A stretch of 29,046 nucleotides of DNA from Deltaproteobacteria bacterium. Its GTDB lineage: Bacteria > UBA10199 > DSSB01. Numbering within the stretch: the first letter of the stretch is position 1; every line of letters begins with the position of its first letter. Position numbers and translations under genes: made by a program. The stretch is taken from contig JAGRNM010000001.1 in assembly GCA_020440745.1 (NCBI GenBank), positions 1 to 29,046 of the forward strand, given 5' to 3'. The notes under the pieces are model-generated. The model searched no databases, was not told the origin of the DNA, and worked only from the letters and a program-made list of their open reading frames with translations. This document shows positions 4,450 through 19,520 of this stretch, piece after piece.

Positions 4450-4512
4450 GCCTTTTGTAATAAAGAATAGCAGAATAGAGTCTGCTAAAAAAATGTCTTA
4501 TTTTGTCTTATA

Positions 4513-4539
4513 TGTCGAAAAGTGTCTTAATTTTCGACA
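4513..4539. promoter_or_regulatory. Perfect 9-bp inverted repeat TGTCGAAAA-N9-TTTTCGACA immediately upstream of a -35-like hexamer
   Basis: Arms at 4513-4521 and 4531-4539, read from the sequence. No U-run follows, so it looks more like an operator or binding site than a terminator. Confidence 0.3.
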
Positions 4540-4544
4540 GTCCT

Positions 4545-4573
4545 TTGACAGGCTTAGTTTTTAAAGTTTAATA
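4545..4573 (+). promoter_or_regulatory. Sigma-70-like promoter, TTGACA-N17-TTAATA
   Basis: Consensus -35 TTGACA at 4545-4550. A 17-nt spacer separates it from the -10-like TTAATA at 4568-4573. It faces the long noncoding region. Confidence 0.3.
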
Positions 4574-4638
4574 CTTTGTTTTCTATAACTTATTAAAATT
4601 ATTAATTAATTTTTAAATTCGTCAAAAAAAATGACTTT

Positions 4639-4654
4639 TGGCACGCTTGGTGCA
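4639..4654 (+). promoter_or_regulatory. Sigma-54 (RpoN)-type -24/-12 promoter-like element, TGGCACG-N4-GTGCA
   Basis: Sequence ttTGGCACGcttgGTGCAct. The GG and GC dinucleotides have the exact canonical spacing of the TGGCACG-N4-TTGCW consensus. The only mismatch is at the first T of TTGC. The predicted TSS is near 4666, pointing at the heptamer array. Confidence 0.35.
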
Positions 4655-4800
4655 CTGAATAAAAGACAGATCACGGGTAGGATAGAAAAAAAAGGCTCTT
4701 TCAAAACTTAAAACTCAAACAAGGCAATCAGGGCCTTTTCACTAAGGGACCGCAAGAGAAAGTTAAGCAAGCTTAGCTTTTCTCAAAAAAATCCAAGGTC

Positions 4801-4995
4801 AGGTAAGCGCGGGTAAGCAAACGGGTAAGTCACTGGGTAGGAAAACTAGGTAACCGGGTAAGCAAGCGGGTAAGTAAAATGGGTAGGAAAACTAGGTAAC
4901 CGGGTAAGCAAGCGGGTAAGTAAAATGGGTAGGAGAAGTAGGTAAGTTTACTGGGTAAGTCACTAGGTAGCTGGGTAAGCACTCAACTGGGTAAA
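4801..4995. repeat. Array of about 17 GGGTAAG-like heptamers at roughly 11-12 bp spacing, including a 46-bp tandem duplication (4835-4880 and 4881-4926, plus a diverged partial third unit)
   Basis: Heptamers GGGTAAG, GGGTAGG, AGGTAAC and AGGTAAG start at about 4801, 4811, 4823, 4835, 4848, 4856, 4868, 4881, 4894, 4902, 4914, 4927, 4939, 4953, 4965, 4972 and 4989. The unit gggtaggaaaactaggtaaccgggtaagcaagcgggtaagtaaaat is repeated exactly twice in tandem. There is no ORF of 60 aa or more on either strand. Confidence 0.8.
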
Positions 4996-5087
4996 GAAAA
5001 TGCGGGCATTTGGGCAGCCCGCAGAAATGGGCTGCCAAGGATTTTACGATAACTCCTCTTTTATCATATTCCCTTTGGGCACTCCTT

Positions 5088-5118
5088 AAGCGACCTTATT
5101 TACGGTCGCTTTTTTTTT
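5088..5118 (+). terminator. Rho-independent terminator: 8-bp stem AAGCGACC/GGTCGCTT, 8-nt loop, then a 9-T run
   Basis: Read directly: aagcgacc ttatttac ggtcgctt ttttttttt. A weaker GGAGGGC-T7 element follows at about 5172-5187. Confidence 0.55.
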
Positions 5119-5219
5119 AATAAAGCCTAAAAGTATCAGGTTTCCCTCAAAAGCTCTCTGTTCCTCAAGGATGGAGGGCTTTTTTTATTGTCTCGCTTAA
5201 AAAAAATGTCTACAGGAAG

Positions 5220-5234
5220 AGCCCGAGTCGGGCT
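5220..5234. promoter_or_regulatory. Palindrome AGCCCGA-G-TCGGGCT in the promoter region of the epimerase gene
   Basis: Perfect 7-bp arms with a 1-nt centre, about 80 bp upstream of the 5317 start. Candidate dimeric regulator site. Confidence 0.25.
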
Positions 5235-5316
5235 TGTTTAAACATCTTGAGCTTATTTAAGACCATAATTACAGGTCCTTATTTGATTTTTTATTGTTTT
5301 TAATTTTGAGGTGGAC

Positions 5317-13232: not shown

Positions 13233-14504
<1,272 letters not shown>

Positions 14505-14623
14505 AAACAACCCTTTCAAAATAGACTTGATATACGATAGACGAAAATTGGCTCCTTTTTTAGTTAGAACAAAGGTTTCGTGTATAAGCTATCGTAGAAT
14601 TTTTTCCTAAGAGGGAAAAATTT

Positions 14624-14708
<85 letters not shown>

Positions 14709-14733
14709 TTTTTTTAGTTTTTGTTTGGTAGAT

Positions 14734-14780
14734 TAAAAAAATCCCGAAACCTTGTAAACAGGTTTCGGGATTTTTATTTT
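14734..14780. terminator. Bidirectional intrinsic terminator between tRNA-Ser (+) and the secreted-protein gene A (-)
   Basis: 11-bp stem ATCCCGAAACC/GGTTTCGGGAT (14741-14771). An A-run lies on the 5' side and TTTTATTTT on the 3' side. Confidence 0.5.
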
Positions 14781-14816
14781 ACAAAGATTCTATTTTAAAA
14801 AACTGACTTCTATTTA

Positions 14817-15665
14817 TTATTGTTTGACTAAAACCCACACGGTAGAAGTCCCTGGAGAAATAGCCATGCCTGCATTGTAGGCGTCTAAGGCTAAAAACTC
14901 TAAAGTAGTTCCAAAAGGAACAGTAATATAATTTTGTAGTCCTTGATCGGTAACAAAATCTTCATATAAAGAACCGATGACGCGACATTGGCTGGTATAC
15001 GCAAAACTAACGTTAGCAGACAGACCAGCGGTGCAAAGTAGCTTTAAAGTATCATTGACTTGTCTTTCTGCAGACCCAGGTAATTGAAAGGAAGAAACTA
15101 GATTAGAATTAGAAGTATTTTGAATAACCACTAAACCTTCTGATTGGGGAATAATGGGAGCAAGAATATTACTGTTGCTAGTGACGGTTGTTGCAACTGG
15201 CTGTCTTATACGATTAACAGTAATCAAATCAGTTGTATTTGTATTAGTCTGAATCGTATTAGCACTTAGACTATTACTGCTTACATGACCATCTACAGTC
15301 ACATCTCCAGTGGTATTAATAGTATCAGTAGAAAAATTTTCTGTATAAATGGTTCTAGAGGCTACTTCATCTAGGTTAGCAGTACCTGTTACGTTTAAGT
15401 CTTGTTCTATGGTAGCTCCACCATGAATTATAGCATCTCTTTGGACGGTTAACCTTCTGTCTGCATGGACGTTGTAGGCGTTTAAATCTCCATCGGCCAC
15501 CACATTACCTTCGGTTAAGACGTCGTTACCTACCAAAACATTGGCAGGAAAACTTTGGTCTAGATTAATAGTAAAGCTAGCCTGAGCAGAGCTTAAACCG
15601 ACTAAGCAAAATAGGGTGCTTAATAGGAGAGTTTGGAAGAGGAGTTTAGTTTTTTTATGTGTCAT
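14817..15665 (-). CDS. Secreted Thr/Ser/Asn-rich protein, paralog A of a local family; conserved C-terminal Cys-loop domain
   Basis: 282 aa. Signal peptide MTHKKTKLLFQTLLLSTLFCLVGLSSAQA. The central region has short degenerate repeats (LNVTGTANLD, INTTGDVTVDG). The C-terminal region LLCTAG...SQCRV...VPFGTTLEF aligns with the C-terminus of ORF B. Confidence 0.6.
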   Translation of the reverse strand: MTHKKTKLLFQTLLLSTLFCLVGLSSAQASFTINLDQSFPANVLVGNDVLTEGNVVADGDLNAYNVHADRRLTVQRDAIIHGGATIEQDLNVTGTANLDEVASRTIYTENFSTDTINTTGDVTVDGHVSSNSLSANTIQTNTNTTDLITVNRIRQPVATTVTSNSNILAPIIPQSEGLVVIQNTSNSNLVSSFQLPGSAERQVNDTLKLLCTAGLSANVSFAYTSQCRVIGSLYEDFVTDQGLQNYITVPFGTTLEFLALDAYNAGMAISPGTSTVWVLVKQ

Positions 15666-15921
15666 AGCCGTTTCCTTTCTGATTTACTTGAAAGAACAAC
15701 AACAATGACGCATCGCTAGGTTAGGGTATGAGTGTTGAATGGGGGCAGAGGAAAGACCCAAGCTTACTTGATTGTAAGCTCTTTGCAGTAGAATGATTGG
15801 AGTGCCTCTTGTTTCCATTGTTGGTAACCCTGCTCTCCCTCTTTTAAGATTTAATAAAAGTAAAAACTTAAAAAGGGAGCAGTAGCTTTGCGTCCCCGAG
15901 TTACCTCGGGTTTGCCTTTGT
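15663..15921 (-). promoter_or_regulatory. Conserved 5' leader/promoter module, copy A
   Basis: Boxes shared with copies B and C, read in minus-strand sense. The hairpin box is AGACAAAGGCAAACCCGAG-GUAA-CUCGGGGACGCAAAGCUACUG, with plus-strand coordinates 15895-15910 for the stem-loop. The other boxes are AGCAGGGTTACC, TGCGTCATTGTTGTTG and GAAAGGAAACGGCT-ATG. Confidence 0.5.
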
Positions 15922-16073
15922 CTTAATGGATTATTTTTAAGAGAGTGTGTCTCTTGTTTAAGAGATCTTGTAAGGGATTTTAAAAAGCGCTGTCTAGTTT
16001 TTTTTATATTTTGTTTAAAAAAAATTCATTATTTTTTGATGCATTGCATCTATTTCTTGTGACTTATTGCATT

Positions 16074-16114
16074 AAAAAAAACCCGAAAGCTTTTTTAAAC
16101 TTTCGGGTTTTTTC
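16074..16114. terminator. Bidirectional intrinsic terminator downstream of secreted-protein gene B (-)
   Basis: Stem ACCCGAAAG/CTTTCGGGT (16081-16108). An A-run lies on one side and a T-run on the other. Confidence 0.5.
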
Positions 16115-16134
16115 ATTTTTTATTGGTTTTATTT

Positions 16135-16827
16135 TTATCTAATTTGGAACCACTTGCCTAACATTCTTTTAAACTCAGTGGTACGACCAAAGTAGACCAT
16201 GGTGCTACTTACTTGGCTTCCATATTTATTAACGAGTGTGTCAAGGTTGTATCCAAAGCTAGTTGCTGGGGCAACGCTACAGTTTGGATAGTTGGTGTAA
16301 TATTGGACAATAATATCAGGTGCCCAACAGGTGAGGGTGACGATGGTTCCGTCTTCAACATTACTAGGTAAACGGAAAGTAGCTGTGGCTCCTGGGCTGA
16401 CACTCGCTCTCATGATCACGTGTCCTAGTTCGGTGATATTAGCATCACTATAGCTGGTGACGTTTTTATAAGGTTCAACTAGTTCACCTCGTTTTAATTT
16501 ACTTAAGTCAGCGCTTCCCGTGATAGTCGCTTGTTCAGCTACTAAAGAAACGAAGTTAGAGTTAGTTCCTGTGACTTCATTTAGGATACTAAGATTACCG
16601 ACTTCCATATCGGAAGCGATTACTTCCACACCATCTCCCCCTAGGACTAAGGTCTCACTTCCTGTAGTCCCTCCAGAGTCTATTCCTTCACTGTCGCCAG
16701 AAAGAGAAATTTGCTCGGTGGTTTTTCCTGCGTCAATGCTTTCTGCTCGGAGACTAAACGGGATGCTTAAGGCAAGCAGGAAGATTAAGGTTAAGGAACG
16801 ATGGAGTGTTTTATATTTTTGTATCAT
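16135..16827 (-). CDS. Secreted Thr/Ser/Gly-rich protein, paralog B (231 aa from Met MIQKYKTL...)
   Basis: The ORF track extends to 16956. The Met at 16827 sits directly after the conserved GAAAGGAAACGGCT RBS box and begins a signal peptide (MIQKYKTLHRSLTLIFLLALSIPFSLRAES). The C-terminal TLTCWAP...PNCSV...VYFGRTTEF aligns with paralog A. Confidence 0.6.
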   Translation of the reverse strand: MIQKYKTLHRSLTLIFLLALSIPFSLRAESIDAGKTTEQISLSGDSEGIDSGGTTGSETLVLGGDGVEVIASDMEVGNLSILNEVTGTNSNFVSLVAEQATITGSADLSKLKRGELVEPYKNVTSYSDANITELGHVIMRASVSPGATATFRLPSNVEDGTIVTLTCWAPDIIVQYYTNYPNCSVAPATSFGYNLDTLVNKYGSQVSSTMVYFGRTTEFKRMLGKWFQIR

Positions 16828-17010
16828 AGCCGTTTCCTTTCCAATGTGGTTTTGAAAAGACAAACAACAATGACGCATGACTGGGGTTAGAAAAATAATT
16901 TTTCCTTTAGGTAACCCTGCTATCCTAGTCTTTGTTTTTTGATTTCTCTTTAACAAAAACTAGGACCAGTAGCTTTGCGTCCCCGAGTTGCCTCGGGTTT
17001 GCCTTTGTCT
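16825..17010 (-). promoter_or_regulatory. Conserved 5' leader/promoter module, copy B (the shortest copy)
   Basis: It has the same ordered boxes as copies A and C. The hairpin is at 16982-16997. In minus-strand sense its loop is GCAA, where A and C have GUAA. Both are GNRA tetraloops. Confidence 0.5.
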
Positions 17011-17082
17011 AGGTTAATAGATGAACTTACAAAGATCGTCTTATTTCACTTGATTTCATTTTAAGAGATAAATACTTGCAAT

Positions 17083-17115
17083 AAAAAAGCCATCCAAGCT
17101 TTTGCTCGGATGGCT
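17083..17115 (-). terminator. Intrinsic terminator oriented for minus-strand transcripts coming from module C
   Basis: In minus-strand sense: hairpin AGCCATCC-(12 nt)-GGATGGCT followed by TTTTTT. It lies about 410 nt downstream of the small ORF stop. Confidence 0.4.
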
Positions 17116-17524
17116 TCCCTTAGATTCTGCTCTTTTTAGTTATTACTTAGAAGCTTTCATCGAGCATTTTCTGGGTTTGGTTCCAATACTTCTTGGGGTT
17201 GTTAAGAAGTATTGGTTTTTACGATTTCTTTTTTTAAAAAAATGTCATCTAGTCTTTAATTTTTTCACTCATTCTCAGTTGCTAGACTGGACTTTCATTT
17301 TAATTTTCAAAGAAACCGTTTTGTCCTTACGGAGAACCTTTGTATTTTTTTTTCATGAACCAGCCTCTATTTTTTTGAGCCTTGTTTTTCCTCTTAGGGT
17401 CTTAAGCTCTGTTAGCGGTTCTAAGTGGGAGGTTAGAGCTGGATCCTAAGGAGTTAAAGGCTAGGCCCTTTTTGCTGGTCATGATTGTTCTCTTCTAAGA
17501 ACACTTCAAGAGCAGCGCTTGGCC

Positions 17525-17635
17525 ATTAAGCCCAGCGAAGTTCTTGCATATAACCATCTAAGTCATTTTGGTTCTTGAAGAACTCAATGCTGTCGGATTT
17601 TTTAAAGAGGTTTTTGATTGCGTTTAGTTTAGTCA
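17525..17635 (-). CDS. 36-codon ORF (MTKLNAIKNLFKKSDSIEFFKNQNDLDGYMQELRWA) directly behind leader module C
   Basis: Its ATG sits in the same position relative to GAAAGGAAACGGCT as the starts of paralogs A and B. It ends at TAA 17525-17527. It has no signal peptide and is below the ORF-track cutoff. Confidence 0.3.
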
Positions 17636-17877
17636 TAGCCGTTTCCTTTCCAATTGGGTTTTGAAAAAGACAACAACAATGACGCTTAGCTTTTACTTAA
17701 GAAGAGGACTCTCTAAGGGAGAGGGAATTTTTTAGATTCCAAGTCGGAGGTTTTTTAAGACTTCGACTTCCATCTTAGGTAACCCTGCTATCCTAGTCTT
17801 TGTTTTTTGATTTCTCTCTAACAAAAGCTAGGACCAGTAGCTTTGCGTCCCCGAGTTACCTCGGGTTTGCCTTTGTC
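17633..17877 (-). promoter_or_regulatory. Conserved 5' leader/promoter module, copy C (carries an extra insert of about 90 nt relative to B)
   Basis: The boxes are near-identical to those of B: 17781-17877 matches 16909-17008 at almost every base. The hairpin is at 17849-17864 with loop GUAA in minus sense. Confidence 0.5.
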
Positions 17878-18208
17878 TAATGGATTGTCAATTTTAGCTT
17901 TTAACGAAGTTTTAGGTTTTTAAGAACCCTAGCGTTTTTTCGTTATCAACTAAAAAAAATTTTAAGAGTTAAAACTAAGAACTGTCAAATTTTTTTTTAA
18001 ATAAGTTTAATAAAAACGCTAGCATAAAAACGTACAGATCTAACAATTGCCTTATTTGGCGCGGGTTTTAAAAGAATTATTTTTTTAAAAAAATTATTAA
18101 TTTTTTATCTTTTTAAAGTCTGTAAAAGTTTGAAAGTGAAAAAAAGGGCTTGTTGATTTTAAAATTAATGAAGCTTTTTGATTTTTAATTGGCTTTAAAA
18201 GATTGTTC

Positions 18209-18967
18209 TTAGGCTTGGGGAGTGGAGTTTTTTAAGAGGAGCTGAAAAGATTTTTTTAAGTTCTCCCGTGCCTGGTGGGCTTTGATGGCTAAGAAGGGTA
18301 AACGGGTTAATAATTTAGGTCTTTTAATACTTTCGCTTAAAAGCCGACCTGCTTGAGACTGGCTATGGGGTTCTAGGAGACTTTCTACTTCTTCTAGGTT
18401 GTCTTTGAGCTCATCAATGACAAAGCGTAAAACCAGTTTGGGTATTTCTAGTTTTTGGGCTGCTTGAAGTACGCCGTGACTTTCCATGTCCACTGCAATG
18501 CCGTCGTATTTAATGGCAAGTGCTTGTTTTTCAATGGGATTTAACAGGGGATGCAGACTACTTAAAAGATTGCCCCGATGGACTTTCCAGCTTTGATTTT
18601 GGCTTAAGAGCTTAAGAGATTCTTCAGTCCAGGCTGGATCGGTGCTTAAGGGTAGGGCGCTAGCTGTATTGGCAACCACAGTAGAGGCTAGGACCAAATC
18701 GCCGGTTTTTAATTGAGAATGGAGGGCACCGCAGTAGCCAGTGCTAATAAGACGACTTAGCTTGAAATTTTCTAAGAGAAAACGCGTAGCCTGGCGGGCT
18801 CGTTTGAGTCCAACTCCTGTTTGTAGCAGGAGAATTTTTTTATCTTGGGCTTCAAATTCTAAGATGCGAAAACCTTGGTAGAGAGTCTGAGTGTAAGCCA
18901 TCCCTTTGGGAACAATGGCCTTGGCTTCATGGGGCAATGCTAGGGTGATGGCCCAGGTTTCTTGCAT
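18209..18967 (-). CDS. PNP/MTAP-superfamily nucleosidase (5'-methylthioadenosine/S-adenosylhomocysteine nucleosidase or futalosine hydrolase-like)
   Basis: 252 aa. Blocks TGVGLKRARQA, ISTGYCGALHSQLKTGD and IAVDMESHGVLQAA...KLVLRFVID parallel the Pfs/MtnN motifs SGIGKVAAA, NTGSAGGL...GD and AVEMEATAIA...VVVRAISD. Confidence 0.65.
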   Translation of the reverse strand: MQETWAITLALPHEAKAIVPKGMAYTQTLYQGFRILEFEAQDKKILLLQTGVGLKRARQATRFLLENFKLSRLISTGYCGALHSQLKTGDLVLASTVVANTASALPLSTDPAWTEESLKLLSQNQSWKVHRGNLLSSLHPLLNPIEKQALAIKYDGIAVDMESHGVLQAAQKLEIPKLVLRFVIDELKDNLEEVESLLEPHSQSQAGRLLSESIKRPKLLTRLPFLAIKAHQARENLKKSFQLLLKNSTPQA

Positions 18968-18968
18968 C

Positions 18969-19364
18969 TTATTCTGTTACAGGACAGGCTTCCTCGATGA
19001 GGACGGTAGCTTGTCCAATTTTTTGACTATCGCTTTTGCTAGTGGCGGTGATGATAATAGAATTACCATCGGGAGGAAGTTCGTTAGGAGCTGTATAAGA
19101 GCCCTCTGAGCCTTCTACATTGCTGATAGTGCCATAGGCATTGCTAGGAACGCTCCAAGTCACCAAAGTGTTGCTATCGGATTGTGAGACGTTGTTAACA
19201 AAAACCGTGGCCTCAAATTGTTGGCTTGCTCCTAAAGACAAAGAGACACAAAGAGGAGTTACTTGCACGGCAATCAAGTCTACTTGGGTGCCTCCGCAAC
19301 TCATCAGGGTCAAGCAACTTAAGACAAAAAGGCTTTTTTTAAATTTTGTCCAAGGGTGAAGCAC
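18969..19364 (-). CDS. Small lipoprotein with a bacterial Ig-like (Big_2-type) domain
   Basis: Lipoprotein signal MLHPWTKFKKSLFVLSCLTLMSCGG. The mature part follows the Big_2 pattern (VTPL.VSLSLGASQQFEATV....VTWSV.....GTIS..G.YTA...G...ITATS). It sits 2 bp upstream of the Pfs-like gene and is probably co-transcribed with it. Confidence 0.55.
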   Translation of the reverse strand: MLHPWTKFKKSLFVLSCLTLMSCGGTQVDLIAVQVTPLCVSLSLGASQQFEATVFVNNVSQSDSNTLVTWSVPSNAYGTISNVEGSEGSYTAPNELPPDGNSIIITATSKSDSQKIGQATVLIEEACPVTE

Positions 19365-19520
19365 GGATCCTCCTTATGGTCTAAAATAGGGTCAACAGCT
19401 TATTCTACATATTAGTTTTTTACATGGAGTGTCTAGTCTTTAGTGATTATTTTGGCTTTTTGGTCTAGCTAAGAAGCTTATTTGACAAAAGTTTCGCTTT
19501 ATGGCGTTTTCCCCCTACTC

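What the first reader, a model, noticed from the sequence alone, without database searches (positions are those of the whole stretch)
17083..17635. Leader module C drives only a 36-codon ORF, followed by about 410 nt with no ORF before a terminator: small protein, ncRNA or decayed paralog
The ATG at 17635 sits in exactly the same register to the GAAAGGAAACGGCT box as the starts of paralogs A and B. The ORF is only 36 codons (MTKLNAIKNLFKKSDSIEFFKNQNDLDGYMQELRWA) and has no signal peptide. The next minus-strand intrinsic terminator is at 17083-17115. The predicted transcript is therefore about 550 nt and mostly noncoding. It could be a bona fide small protein co-regulated with the secreted paralogs. 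It could be a leader peptide with a regulatory 3' region. It could be the remnant of a third paralog whose body has decayed. The plus-strand ORF 17102-17449 is low-complexity and probably spurious.
Basis: inference. Interest (0 to 1): 0.5.

Follow-up and report, generated by a model that had tools for sequence, protein, structure and literature searches.

The report
Riboswitch copy gating a 36-codon ORF
The "leader module" is a cyclic-di-GMP-class riboswitch present three times in a row; the third copy is fully intact but controls only a 36-codon orphan reading frame followed by about 410 nt of hairpin-rich untranslated RNA, and this cargo is not a decayed copy of the neighbouring secreted-protein genes.

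Summary

- **Identity of the leader.** All three "leader modules" are GEMM-I (c-di-GMP-I clan) riboswitch aptamers. Each is followed by a conserved hairpin that buries the Shine-Dalgarno sequence and the AUG.
- **Why the register is fixed.** The invariant 14-mer GCGTCATTGTTGTT can pair either with the SD/AUG strand or with the aptamer core. This explains the fixed ATG register and predicts a ligand-OFF translational switch.
- **State of module C.** It keeps the best promoter in the region, an intact aptamer (67.5 bits), the most stable sequestor hairpin and a strong terminator.
- **What lies downstream.** There is a 36-codon orphan ORF with ambiguous coding statistics. It is followed by 409 ORF-free, A-rich nucleotides that fold into three hairpin domains (z = -5.1, the most extreme stretch in the contig).
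- **Decayed paralog.** Homology between modules is confined to the aptamer and the platform. No trace of gene A or B exists downstream, so this reading is not supported.
- **Limits.** The contig comes from an isolated MAG lineage, and A, B and the peptide are all orphans. Conservation could not be tested.
- **Closest precedent.** Bdellovibrio merRNA, a 445-nt riboswitch-bearing sRNA.

Function remains inferred.

The parts
17959..17988 (-). Sigma-70-type promoter of module C (TTGACA, 18 nt, TAAAAT); predicted start near 17950
   Evidence: 11 of 12 matches. It is the only minus-strand promoter-like site found in 14500-19500.
17774..17880 (-). GEMM-I (c-di-GMP-I clan) riboswitch aptamer, copy C
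   Evidence: RF03167, 67.5 bits (gathering 59), E = 3.8e-14, full-length model match. It has a GUAA tetraloop on the first hairpin. It is 95% identical to copy B.
17688..17773 (-). Linker with three small hairpins. It is not alignable with the linkers of A or B. It contains a weak terminator-like hairpin at 17723-17709 and the 12-mer AACCTCCGACTT at 17752-17741.
17632..17685 (-). Expression platform. The anti-SD strand GCGUCAUUGUUGUUGUCUUUUUC (17685-17661) pairs with the SD/start strand UUGGAAAGGAAACGGCUAUGAC (17653-17632), burying the SD and the AUG. The same anti-SD strand can alternatively pair with the aptamer core (AGACAA, GGCAA, GACGC).
   Evidence: hairpin -19.6 kcal/mol (A -17.9, B -14.5); pair probabilities 0.95-0.99; forcing the SD/AUG single-stranded costs 7.0 kcal/mol and produces the aptamer-core/anti-SD pairing in all three modules.
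17526..17636 (-). 36-codon orphan ORF (ATG to TAA). The SD-like AAGGA lies 7 nt upstream of the ATG.
   Evidence: Codon score +0.13 bits/codon. No homolog or family. Single-sequence AF2 model has three short helices, pLDDT 81. Fold z = -1.3, with the first 44 nt unpaired.
17353..17484 (-). 3' region domain D1: a long irregular hairpin closed by UCAUGACCAGC / GCUGGUUCAUGA. The apical loop carries AACCUCCCACUU.
   Evidence: z = -3.2; helix probabilities 0.76-1.00.
17221..17319 (-). 3' region domain D2: a hairpin closed by the 11-bp helix ACGGUUUCUUU / AAAGAAAUCGU
   Evidence: z = -3.4; helix probabilities 0.90-0.99.
17183..17215 (-). 3' region domain D3: a perfect 12-bp hairpin with a C-rich loop (AACAACCCC). 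On the plus strand the same hairpin is followed by TTTTT and looks like a terminator.
   Evidence: z = -6.3 on the minus strand, -5.6 on the plus strand.
17079..17116 (-). Intrinsic terminator that ends the module C transcript, about 70 nt upstream of aptamer B
   Evidence: 13-bp stem, probability 0.98, then U6. Removing it changes the MFE from -128.1 to -102 kcal/mol.
16906..17012 (-). Aptamer copy B, upstream of gene B (16135-16827, 230 aa, signal peptide)
   Evidence: 68.8 bits.
15819..15925 (-). Aptamer copy A, upstream of gene A (14817-15665, 282 aa, signal peptide)
   Evidence: 63.4 bits.

Best explanation
Module C is an intact, separately transcribed third copy of a GEMM-I (cyclic-di-GMP class) riboswitch that acts on translation initiation.

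Transcript layout (minus strand):
- A strong sigma-70-type promoter (17988-17959) starts an RNA of about 870 nt.
- The aptamer (17880-17774) is followed by an anti-SD strand that has two possible partners.

Proposed switch:
- If the aptamer is locked by ligand, the anti-SD strand pairs with the SD/AUG strand and blocks ribosome entry at AUG 17636.
- If the aptamer is unliganded, the same strand can pair with the aptamer core (AGACAA, GGCAA, GACGC), whose sequence mimics the SD box, and the SD/AUG is freed.
- The predicted logic is ligand = OFF.

Cargo:
- What is gated in module C is a 36-codon orphan ORF, not a secreted protein.
- Behind the ORF lie 409 nt of A-rich untranslated RNA folded into three hairpin domains, then a strong terminator.

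My committed reading is that this unit is functional and mostly non-coding. Translation of the mini-ORF is the regulated step, and the peptide may be the product or may act only in cis on the fate of the RNA. The structured 3' part is a long 3' UTR or sRNA moiety.

Basis of each step:
- Shown: aptamer identity, both alternative pairings, intactness of all signals, absence of an ORF, absence of similarity to A or B, and unusual predicted structure.
- Inferred: the ligand, the direction of switching, translation of the ORF, and any function of the 3' RNA.
For: Riboswitch and platform:
- Three aptamers score 63-69 bits on Rfam RF03167, and other clan families also passed their thresholds.
- Aptamer and platform are conserved across the three modules, and GCGTCATTGTTGTT and GAAAGGAAACGGCTATGA are invariant.
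- The sequestor hairpin forms in all three modules: -17.9, -14.5 and -19.6 kcal/mol, with pair probabilities 0.95-0.99 in C.
- With the SD/AUG forced open, the anti-SD strand pairs with the aptamer core in all three modules, at a cost of 5.8-7.2 kcal/mol.

Intactness of module C:
- Module C has the only consensus-like minus-strand promoter in 5 kb.
- It has a strong terminator.
- Homology between modules is restricted to the functional segments: B versus C is 95% in the aptamer and 80% in the platform, with linker, upstream region and coding sequence at random level.

3' region:
- GC is 0.367, against 0.22-0.24 for the flanking spacers.
- Fold z = -5.12 without the terminator and -6.57 with it. 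Contig background is mean -1.0, sd 1.6, and the most extreme window overlaps this region.
- Each of the three domains has z between -3.2 and -6.3.

ORF:
- It is longer than chance at p = 0.08. The codon score of +0.13 lies between real genes (0.28-0.34) and spurious ORFs (-0.15).

Precedents:
- Bdellovibrio merRNA is a 445-nt c-di-GMP-riboswitch sRNA with no conserved ORF (PMC3627812).
- Small ORFs sit directly behind GEMM-I aptamers in other lineages.
Against: - No comparative evidence at all. The lineage is isolated: the nearest homolog of the adjacent PNP-like protein is 41% identical, and A and B are orphans.
- The peptide has no homolog.
- NCBI locus tags run 00075 (A) and 00085 (PNP-like), leaving room for one gene, presumably B, between them. 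Nothing therefore appears to have been called in module C.
- The codon score of the ORF is reached by 20% of composition-matched non-coding windows.
- The ATG is carried by the hairpin itself, so it would be present even without a gene.
- The hairpin domains score equally on the plus strand. The structure signal may therefore reflect DNA-level palindromes such as repeat-element remnants rather than a selected RNA.
- The near-identity of aptamers B and C, including loop positions, could mean a recent copy or gene conversion rather than long-term selection on C.
- A purely translational switch does not obviously control the 3' RNA.
Confidence: 0.42

Rival explanations
1. Non-functional relic. 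The aptamer and platform of a neighbouring module (B-like) were copied or gene-converted onto a stretch that has no cargo, or whose cargo was lost. The 36-codon ORF is simply what happens to follow the ATG built into the hairpin, and the 3' region is junk with leftover palindromes.
For: - Aptamers B and C are 95% identical, even in loop positions, which suggests recency.
- The ATG belongs to the hairpin.
- ORF length and codon score are within reach of chance: p = 0.08, and 8-20% of controls score as high.
- There are stops in all frames, no homolog, and apparently nothing annotated here.
Against: - Every expression signal is intact and as good as or better than in A and B: promoter 11 of 12, aptamer 67.5 bits, the strongest sequestor hairpin, and a dedicated strong terminator.
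- Linkers between the conserved segments are unalignable, so this is not one simple recent block duplication.
- GC of the 3' region is well above spacer level, and predicted structure is the most extreme in the contig.
Confidence: 0.3
2. A merRNA-like riboswitch-bearing sRNA. The transcript acts as an RNA, for example as a cyclic-di-GMP buffer or sponge, or as a trans-acting or protein-binding sRNA through its hairpin loops. The mini-ORF is irrelevant.
For: - Published precedent of a 445-nt c-di-GMP-riboswitch sRNA without a conserved ORF in a bacterium classed with the Deltaproteobacteria.
- Strongest promoter of the region.
- Three stable hairpin domains.
- C-rich apical loops (CCUCCC in D1, CCCC in D3) in a sequence with 19% C.
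- The 12-mer AACCTCC(G/C)ACTT is shared by the leader linker and the D1 loop.
Against: - The conserved platform is an SD/AUG sequestor, which only makes sense if ribosome binding matters.
- No sequence comparison with merRNA was possible.
- No known RNA family is found in 16900-18100 even at E <= 10.
- The structure signal is not strand-specific.
Confidence: 0.18
3. Module C is the upstream part of a very long leader of gene B. Transcription from promoter C reads through the terminator at 17116-17079, so gene B is under two riboswitches in series.
For: - No sigma-70-like promoter was detected in the roughly 70 nt between the terminator and aptamer B.
- Tandem c-di-GMP riboswitches are known (one search lists PMC4759541 and PMC9481103), and tandem aptamers were seen in loci L121-L135.
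Against: - The terminator is strong: 13 bp followed by U6.
- 870 nt separate the two aptamers, against about 265-285 nt in the tandem loci.
- Each module has its own complete platform and start codon.
Confidence: 0.06
4. The relevant feature is on the plus strand: either the 115-aa ORF 17102-17449, or an antisense RNA ending at the plus-strand terminator-like hairpin 17183-17215.
For: - Plus-strand hairpin followed by TTTTT.
- Weak plus-strand promoter-like site at 16870-16899, 9 of 12.
- The ORF exists.
Against: - TTG start, no SD, codon score -0.04, and no family.
- The hydrophobic, low-complexity translation is what a T-rich antisense strand gives.
- The promoter match is at chance level: 5 sites found against 8.9 expected.
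Confidence: 0.03

Closest known systems
c-di-GMP-I (GEMM-I) riboswitches, Rfam clan CL00126 (RF01051; best-scoring model here RF03167, c-di-GMP-I-GGC)
   Same: - Full-length covariance-model matches for all three aptamers.
- GNRA tetraloop hairpin, conserved AAAGGCAAACC...GGGACGCAAAGC core and GCAGGGTTACC 3' strand.
- Located in 5' leaders of genes for secreted proteins.
- The core pattern recurs in many phyla.
   Different: - The position after GGGACGC is A in all three copies, and in all 151 retrieved cores, whereas the RF03167 consensus shows G. Assignment to the variant rather than the canonical class is therefore by score only.
- Ligand not tested.
- Copy C has no protein-sized cargo. The distance to the next ORF of at least 80 aa is about 1000 nt, against a median of 113 nt in 134 other loci, of which only 3 exceed 900 nt.
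merRNA of Bdellovibrio bacteriovorus (massively expressed riboswitch RNA; PMC3627812)
   Same: A discrete transcript several hundred nucleotides long that carries a c-di-GMP riboswitch and has no protein-sized ORF behind it.
   Different: - merRNA is 445 nt and its authors found no conserved ORF. Here the RNA is about 870 nt and keeps a complete SD/AUG-sequestering platform and a 36-codon ORF.
- Expression level is unknown.
- Sequence relationship could not be tested.
Riboswitch-controlled non-coding RNAs (AdoCbl riboswitch with EutX/Rli55; SAM riboswitch SreA acting in trans). Recalled from my own knowledge, not checked here.
   Same: A riboswitch whose output is an RNA rather than a protein-coding operon.
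   Different: Those act through transcription termination or antisense effects. The platform here is a translational sequestor.
Regulatory leader peptides and upstream ORFs (for example tnaC, mgtL). Recalled from my own knowledge.
   Same: A short ORF at the 5' end of a transcript whose translation could decide the fate of the RNA downstream.
   Different: No structural gene follows within the transcript, because a strong terminator precedes module B. No known arrest motif was recognised.

Membership tests
GEMM-I / c-di-GMP-I clan riboswitch (CL00126) | Covariance-model score above the curated gathering threshold over the full model | tested here: met
   67.5 bits for copy C (B 68.8, A 63.4) against gathering 59 for RF03167, model positions 1-80 of 80. 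Four lower-scoring clan matches above their own thresholds were suppressed.
GEMM-I / c-di-GMP-I clan riboswitch (CL00126) | Position in a 5' leader, same strand, with an expression platform that can respond to aptamer folding | tested here: met
   conserved SD/AUG sequestor, and an alternative pairing of its 5' strand with the aptamer core, in all three modules.
GEMM-I / c-di-GMP-I clan riboswitch (CL00126) | Binding of c-di-GMP or another cyclic dinucleotide | not testable with these tools
   Needs in-line probing or ITC.
c-di-GMP-I-GGC variant (RF03167) specifically | Variant nucleotide in the binding core. The Rfam consensus shows G after GGGACGC. My reading that this is what the name refers to is from memory. 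| tested here: not met
   all three copies have A at that position (GGGACGCAAAGC), as do all 151 retrieved cores, including loci that also score best on RF03167.
Pseudogene of a third A/B-type secreted protein | Residual protein or DNA similarity to A or B in some frame | tested here: not met
   - tblastn best E > 30 in the region.
- Smith-Waterman of three frames against A and B, p = 0.17-0.78.
- DNA Smith-Waterman z <= 3.2.
- First 60 nt of coding sequence at random identity.
- No codon signal in the 3' region.
Small protein gene | SD and start codon at proper spacing | tested here: met
   AAGGA lies 7 nt upstream of the ATG, identical to genes A and B.
Small protein gene | Reading frame conserved in relatives, or coding statistics clearly above non-coding | tested here: inconclusive
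   - No relatives found.
- Codon score +0.13 bits/codon; 8% of spurious ORFs and 20% of composition-matched non-coding windows reach it.
- Length p = 0.08.
Riboswitch-bearing sRNA (merRNA type) | Discrete abundant transcript with aptamer and no conserved ORF | not testable with these tools
   Promoter and terminator are predicted only. No expression data, and no relatives in which to judge ORF conservation.
Structured non-coding RNA | Predicted stability beyond shuffles and beyond the genomic background, with strand specificity or covariation | tested here: inconclusive
   - z = -5.1, the most extreme region in the contig.
- The plus strand gives z = -3.5 overall and equal z per domain.
- No homologs for covariation.
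- No Rfam family.
Repeat element / MITE remnants | Multiple copies in the genome | tested here: inconclusive
   - No other copy in the 29-kb contig.
- None in the plasmid or phage collections.
- The rest of the MAG could not be searched.
Leader-peptide attenuator | A regulated structural gene downstream in the same transcript | tested here: not met
   A strong terminator at 17116-17079 ends the unit before module B.

The most novel reading that the evidence does not exclude
A cyclic-di-GMP-class riboswitch whose sole cargo is a dual-function RNA: a ligand-gated 36-aa micro-protein fused to a roughly 400-nt three-hairpin RNA that acts on its own, as a sponge, a protein decoy or a trans-acting sRNA. 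It sits beside two sister riboswitches that control secreted proteins. This would be a second, independent example, after Bdellovibrio merRNA, of a second-messenger riboswitch embedded in a non-mRNA transcript. It would also come with an SD-mimicry switching design.
Probability: 0.25. Interest if true: 0.6.

Novelty: new member of a known kind. Interest (0 to 1): 0.4.

Why it matters
If the unit is functional, it adds a case where a second-messenger riboswitch controls a micro-ORF or a structured RNA rather than an enzyme or adhesin. Very few such cases are described; merRNA is the main one.

The three modules also show a compact and testable switching design. The SD box (GAAAGGAAAC...AUGAC) mimics the aptamer core (CAAAGGCAAAC...GACGC), so one invariant 14-nt strand can choose between them.

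If the unit is a relic, it illustrates how riboswitch leaders spread as cassettes independently of their cargo. In practical terms, it warns annotators that an ATG in a conserved register behind such a leader is part of the RNA switch and is not in itself evidence of a gene.

Tried and rejected
1. Genome-collection scan with an aptamer-core pattern. The pattern was too broad.
2. Metagenome scan with a narrower two-part aptamer pattern. It returned 16 loci that share only aptamer cores.
3. Exact-sequence look-ups of the peptide, of the PNP-like protein and of B. None is on record.
4. Homology searches. The neighbour's best homolog is 41% identical; A, B and the peptide are orphans.
5. Pfam, NCBIfam, PADLOC and PDB searches for the peptide, A, B and the plus-strand ORF. 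Nothing meaningful.
6. Rfam at E <= 10 on 16900-18100. Only the aptamers were found; group I intron and other large RNAs are not detected.
7. Similarity of the 3' region to leaders, genes or UTRs of A, B or C, or to anything else in the contig. None. A fourth, decayed module is rejected.
8. RNA duplex search of the 3' region against the leaders. It gave uninformative whole-length duplexes with p = 0.04-0.2, and was dropped.
9. AF2 of protein A without an alignment. pLDDT was 41, which is unusable, so the A/B fold comparison was abandoned.
10. AF2 of the peptide. It is helical with pLDDT 81, but no control peptides could be run, so this is treated as non-discriminating.
11. The first z-score scan timed out and was repeated more coarsely.
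12. The paper that defined the GGC variant could not be read.
Full report
**What is in the sequence**

The ATG is at 17636, one base off the reported position. The box GGAAAGGAAACGGCT precedes the ATG in the same register as at gene A (14817-15665, 282 aa) and gene B (16135-16827, 230 aa). In a three-way alignment the stretch GAAAGGAAACGGCTATGA is invariant.

From 17525 to 17117 the longest minus-strand ORF is 26 aa, and all three frames are full of stops. The terminator is real: a 13-bp stem (17116-17104 with 17099-17087, pair probability 0.98) followed by a U-run. The simple scanner missed it.

The only consensus-like minus-strand promoter within 5 kb is TTGACA-18-TAAAAT at 17988-17959. The predicted RNA is therefore about 870 nt, not 550 nt.

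**What the leader module is**

Rfam places a GEMM-I-clan aptamer at each of the three modules:
- 15819-15925, 63.4 bits;
- 16906-17012, 68.8 bits;
- 17774-17880, 67.5 bits.

The best model is RF03167 (c-di-GMP-I-GGC, gathering score 59). Lower-scoring matches to other clan families that also passed their thresholds were suppressed.

At the position after GGGACGC the RF03167 consensus has G. All three copies have A, as do all 151 cores retrieved from other genomes. I therefore file them under the clan and do not claim the variant's specificity. The ligand, presumably c-di-GMP, is inferred.

**How the switch is built**

Between the modules only two segments are conserved: the aptamer, and a platform running GCGTCATTGTTGTT ... 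CTTT(T)C, then a loop, then GAAAGGAAACGGCTATGA.

The platform folds into a hairpin that buries the SD and the AUG in all three modules, at -17.9, -14.5 and -19.6 kcal/mol. In module C the pair probabilities are 0.95-0.99. AUGAC pairs with GUCAU, so the register of the ATG, and even the second codon, are dictated by the RNA structure.

When the SD/AUG strand is forced to be single-stranded, the 5' strand of the hairpin pairs with the aptamer core instead. GCGUC pairs with GACGC, UUGUU with GGCAA, and UUGUCU with AGACAA. This happens in all three modules, at a cost of 5.8-7.2 kcal/mol.

The SD box is thus a mimic of the aptamer core, and one invariant strand chooses between the two partners. The inference is that a ligand-locked aptamer leaves the strand free to sequester the SD/AUG, which means translation OFF. 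An unliganded aptamer core captures the strand, which means translation ON. This is a structural prediction, not a measurement.

**Is module C intact?**

Yes. Module C has:
- the best promoter of the region;
- a full-length aptamer;
- the most stable sequestor hairpin;
- the same alternative pairing as A and B;
- its own strong terminator.

**Is the cargo a decayed paralog?**

This is not supported.
- tblastn of A and B finds nothing in 17083-17635; the best E-values exceed 30.
- Smith-Waterman of the three translated frames against A and B is at shuffle level, p = 0.17-0.78.
- DNA comparison of the 3' region with the leaders, genes and UTRs of A, B and C is not significant, and nothing else in the contig resembles it.
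- Segment by segment, B versus C is 95% identical in the aptamer and 80% in the platform. It is at random level in the linker (32%), the upstream 60 nt (47%) and the first 60 nt of coding sequence (55%). What was copied or kept alike is the switch, not a gene.
- The three frames of the 3' region have no residual codon signal: +0.07, -0.08 and -0.02 bits/codon, against about 0.3 for genes.

In addition, A and B themselves are not demonstrably paralogous. BLASTP gives E = 7.3 and shuffles give p about 0.1. A collinear C-terminal pattern (F-x-L-P, C-x15-C, FG-T-EF) is visible by eye.

**Is the 36-codon ORF a gene?**

This is undecided.

In favour:
- the SD spacing is identical to A and B;
- the platform makes sense only if ribosome entry matters;
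- the ORF is longer than expected, P = 0.08;
- the codon score of +0.13 bits/codon lies between real genes (0.28-0.34, sd 0.18) and spurious ORFs (-0.15, sd 0.19; 8% reach it);
- the first 44 nt are predicted to be unpaired;
- a single-sequence AF2 model gives three short helices at pLDDT 81, which is weak evidence because no controls could be run.

Against:
- 20% of composition-matched non-coding windows reach the same codon score;
- the K/N-rich composition is what A-rich RNA gives on translation;
- there is no homolog, family or solved structure;
- the NCBI record appears to have no gene there, since locus tags 00075 (A) and 00085 (PNP-like) leave one slot, presumably gene B.

**The 3' region**

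It is very A-rich (A 0.42, T 0.21). Its GC of 0.367 resembles the leaders (0.38-0.41) and is well above the flanking spacers (0.22-0.24).

It is predicted to fold much better than shuffles. The z-score is -6.57 with the terminator and -5.12 without it. Across the contig, 400-nt windows average z = -1.0 with sd 1.6, and the most extreme window is the one overlapping this region.

The signal resolves into three consecutive hairpin domains:
- D1, 17484-17353, z = -3.2;
- D2, 17319-17221, z = -3.4;
- D3, 17215-17183, a perfect 12-bp stem, z = -6.3.

The plus strand gives similar per-domain z-scores. Folding therefore cannot tell an RNA-level structure from DNA palindromes. On the plus strand D3 even looks like a terminator. 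No Rfam family matches at E <= 10, and there is no match in the plasmid or phage collections.

**Comparative evidence**

None could be obtained.
- The window is a complete 29,046-bp contig of an NCBI MAG labelled Deltaproteobacteria bacterium.
- The adjacent PNP-like protein's next-best homolog is 41% identical.
- B is alone among 1.84 billion representatives, and A is alone as well.
- My genome scan used too broad a pattern and returned unrelated aptamers.
- The metagenome scan returned only aptamer cores.

Those loci do give a base rate. The median distance from aptamer core to the next ORF of at least 80 aa is 113 nt, and only 3 of 134 exceed 900 nt. Module C is at about 1000 nt. They also give analogues:
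- an aptamer followed directly by a 60-aa ORF, then about 740 ORF-free nt (L131 and L134);
- tandem aptamers followed by a conserved 28-aa hydrophobic ORF (L121, L122, L124, L126 and L135).

**Closest published analogue**

Bdellovibrio merRNA is a 445-nt, massively expressed sRNA that contains a c-di-GMP riboswitch and has no conserved ORF. Its authors proposed it as a c-di-GMP store (PMC3627812). Module C resembles it in being a riboswitch-bearing, mostly non-coding unit. It differs in retaining a complete translational platform and a mini-ORF. Homology could not be tested.

**Verdict**

The decayed-paralog reading is not supported. The unit is best described as an intact GEMM-I riboswitch transcription unit whose cargo is a mini-ORF plus a structured untranslated RNA.

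My estimated weights are:
- about 0.42 for a functional unit in which translation of the mini-ORF is the gated step;
- about 0.30 for a cargo-less relic;
- about 0.18 for a merRNA-like RNA in which the ORF is irrelevant;
- the remainder for read-through into B or a plus-strand feature.

Interest is moderate. The riboswitch family is known and a precedent for ORF-less cargo exists. The SD-mimicry platform and the micro-ORF/structured-RNA cargo are worth an experiment.

Noticed in passing
window 4450-5310 (+): An 860-nt ORF-free gap after an ilvD-like gene. It contains a sigma-54-like promoter (TGGCACgcttgGTGCA, about 4640-4655) and an array of about 16 GGGTAAG/GGGTAGG motifs at 4800-4990 (TRF period 46, 3.1 copies, 92% match). 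Hairpins with T-runs follow near 5083-5110 and 5165-5188. It looks like a repeat-motif sRNA. No Rfam family matches.
   Followed up: partly
L121, L122, L124, L126, L135 (metagenome contigs, GC 0.30-0.37): Tandem GEMM-I aptamers about 265-285 nt apart, each preceded by a conserved block (ttgcccaagg..gatgatga..gggaggtgat). The second aptamer is followed by a conserved 28-aa hydrophobic ORF (MNTVTVFTLLVLAAAFMFAAFASIIYQV, with synonymous differences between contigs) and then by secreted proteins.
   Followed up: partly
L131:225-1243 and L134:3095-4100: An aptamer that scores best on RF03167, followed 13 nt later by a 60-aa ORF with an AGGAG SD. About 740 ORF-free nt follow, then a DUF3450 protein and a 462-aa membrane protein. 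The layout is similar to module C.
   Followed up: partly
window 17741-17752 and 17423-17434: The 12-mer AACCTCC(G/C)ACTT (minus strand) occurs both in the linker of leader C and in the apical loop of hairpin D1, with 11 of 12 positions identical. It contains the anti-SD-like CCUCC. This was found post hoc, and its significance is unclear.
   Followed up: no
window 17013-17082: No sigma-70-like promoter was detected between the module C terminator and aptamer B, and the candidate for module A is also weak. How A and B are transcribed is open.
   Followed up: no
window 14817-15665 and 16135-16827: Proteins A and B are orphans with Sec-type signal peptides. Pairwise similarity is not significant, but their C-terminal parts share a collinear pattern F-x-L-P ... 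C-x15-C ... FG-T-EF. A has a sub-threshold FapA beta-solenoid hit.
   Followed up: partly
window 15819-15925, 16906-17012, 17774-17880; loci L036, L131, L134: Aptamers that score best on RF03167 (c-di-GMP-I-GGC) nevertheless carry A where that model's consensus has G after GGGACGC. Assignment to the variant by score alone may over-call it.
   Followed up: partly
window 14623-14709 (+) and 13233-14504 (+): tRNA-Ser(UGA) lies directly downstream of the seryl-tRNA synthetase gene and converges on the 3' end of gene A.
   Followed up: no
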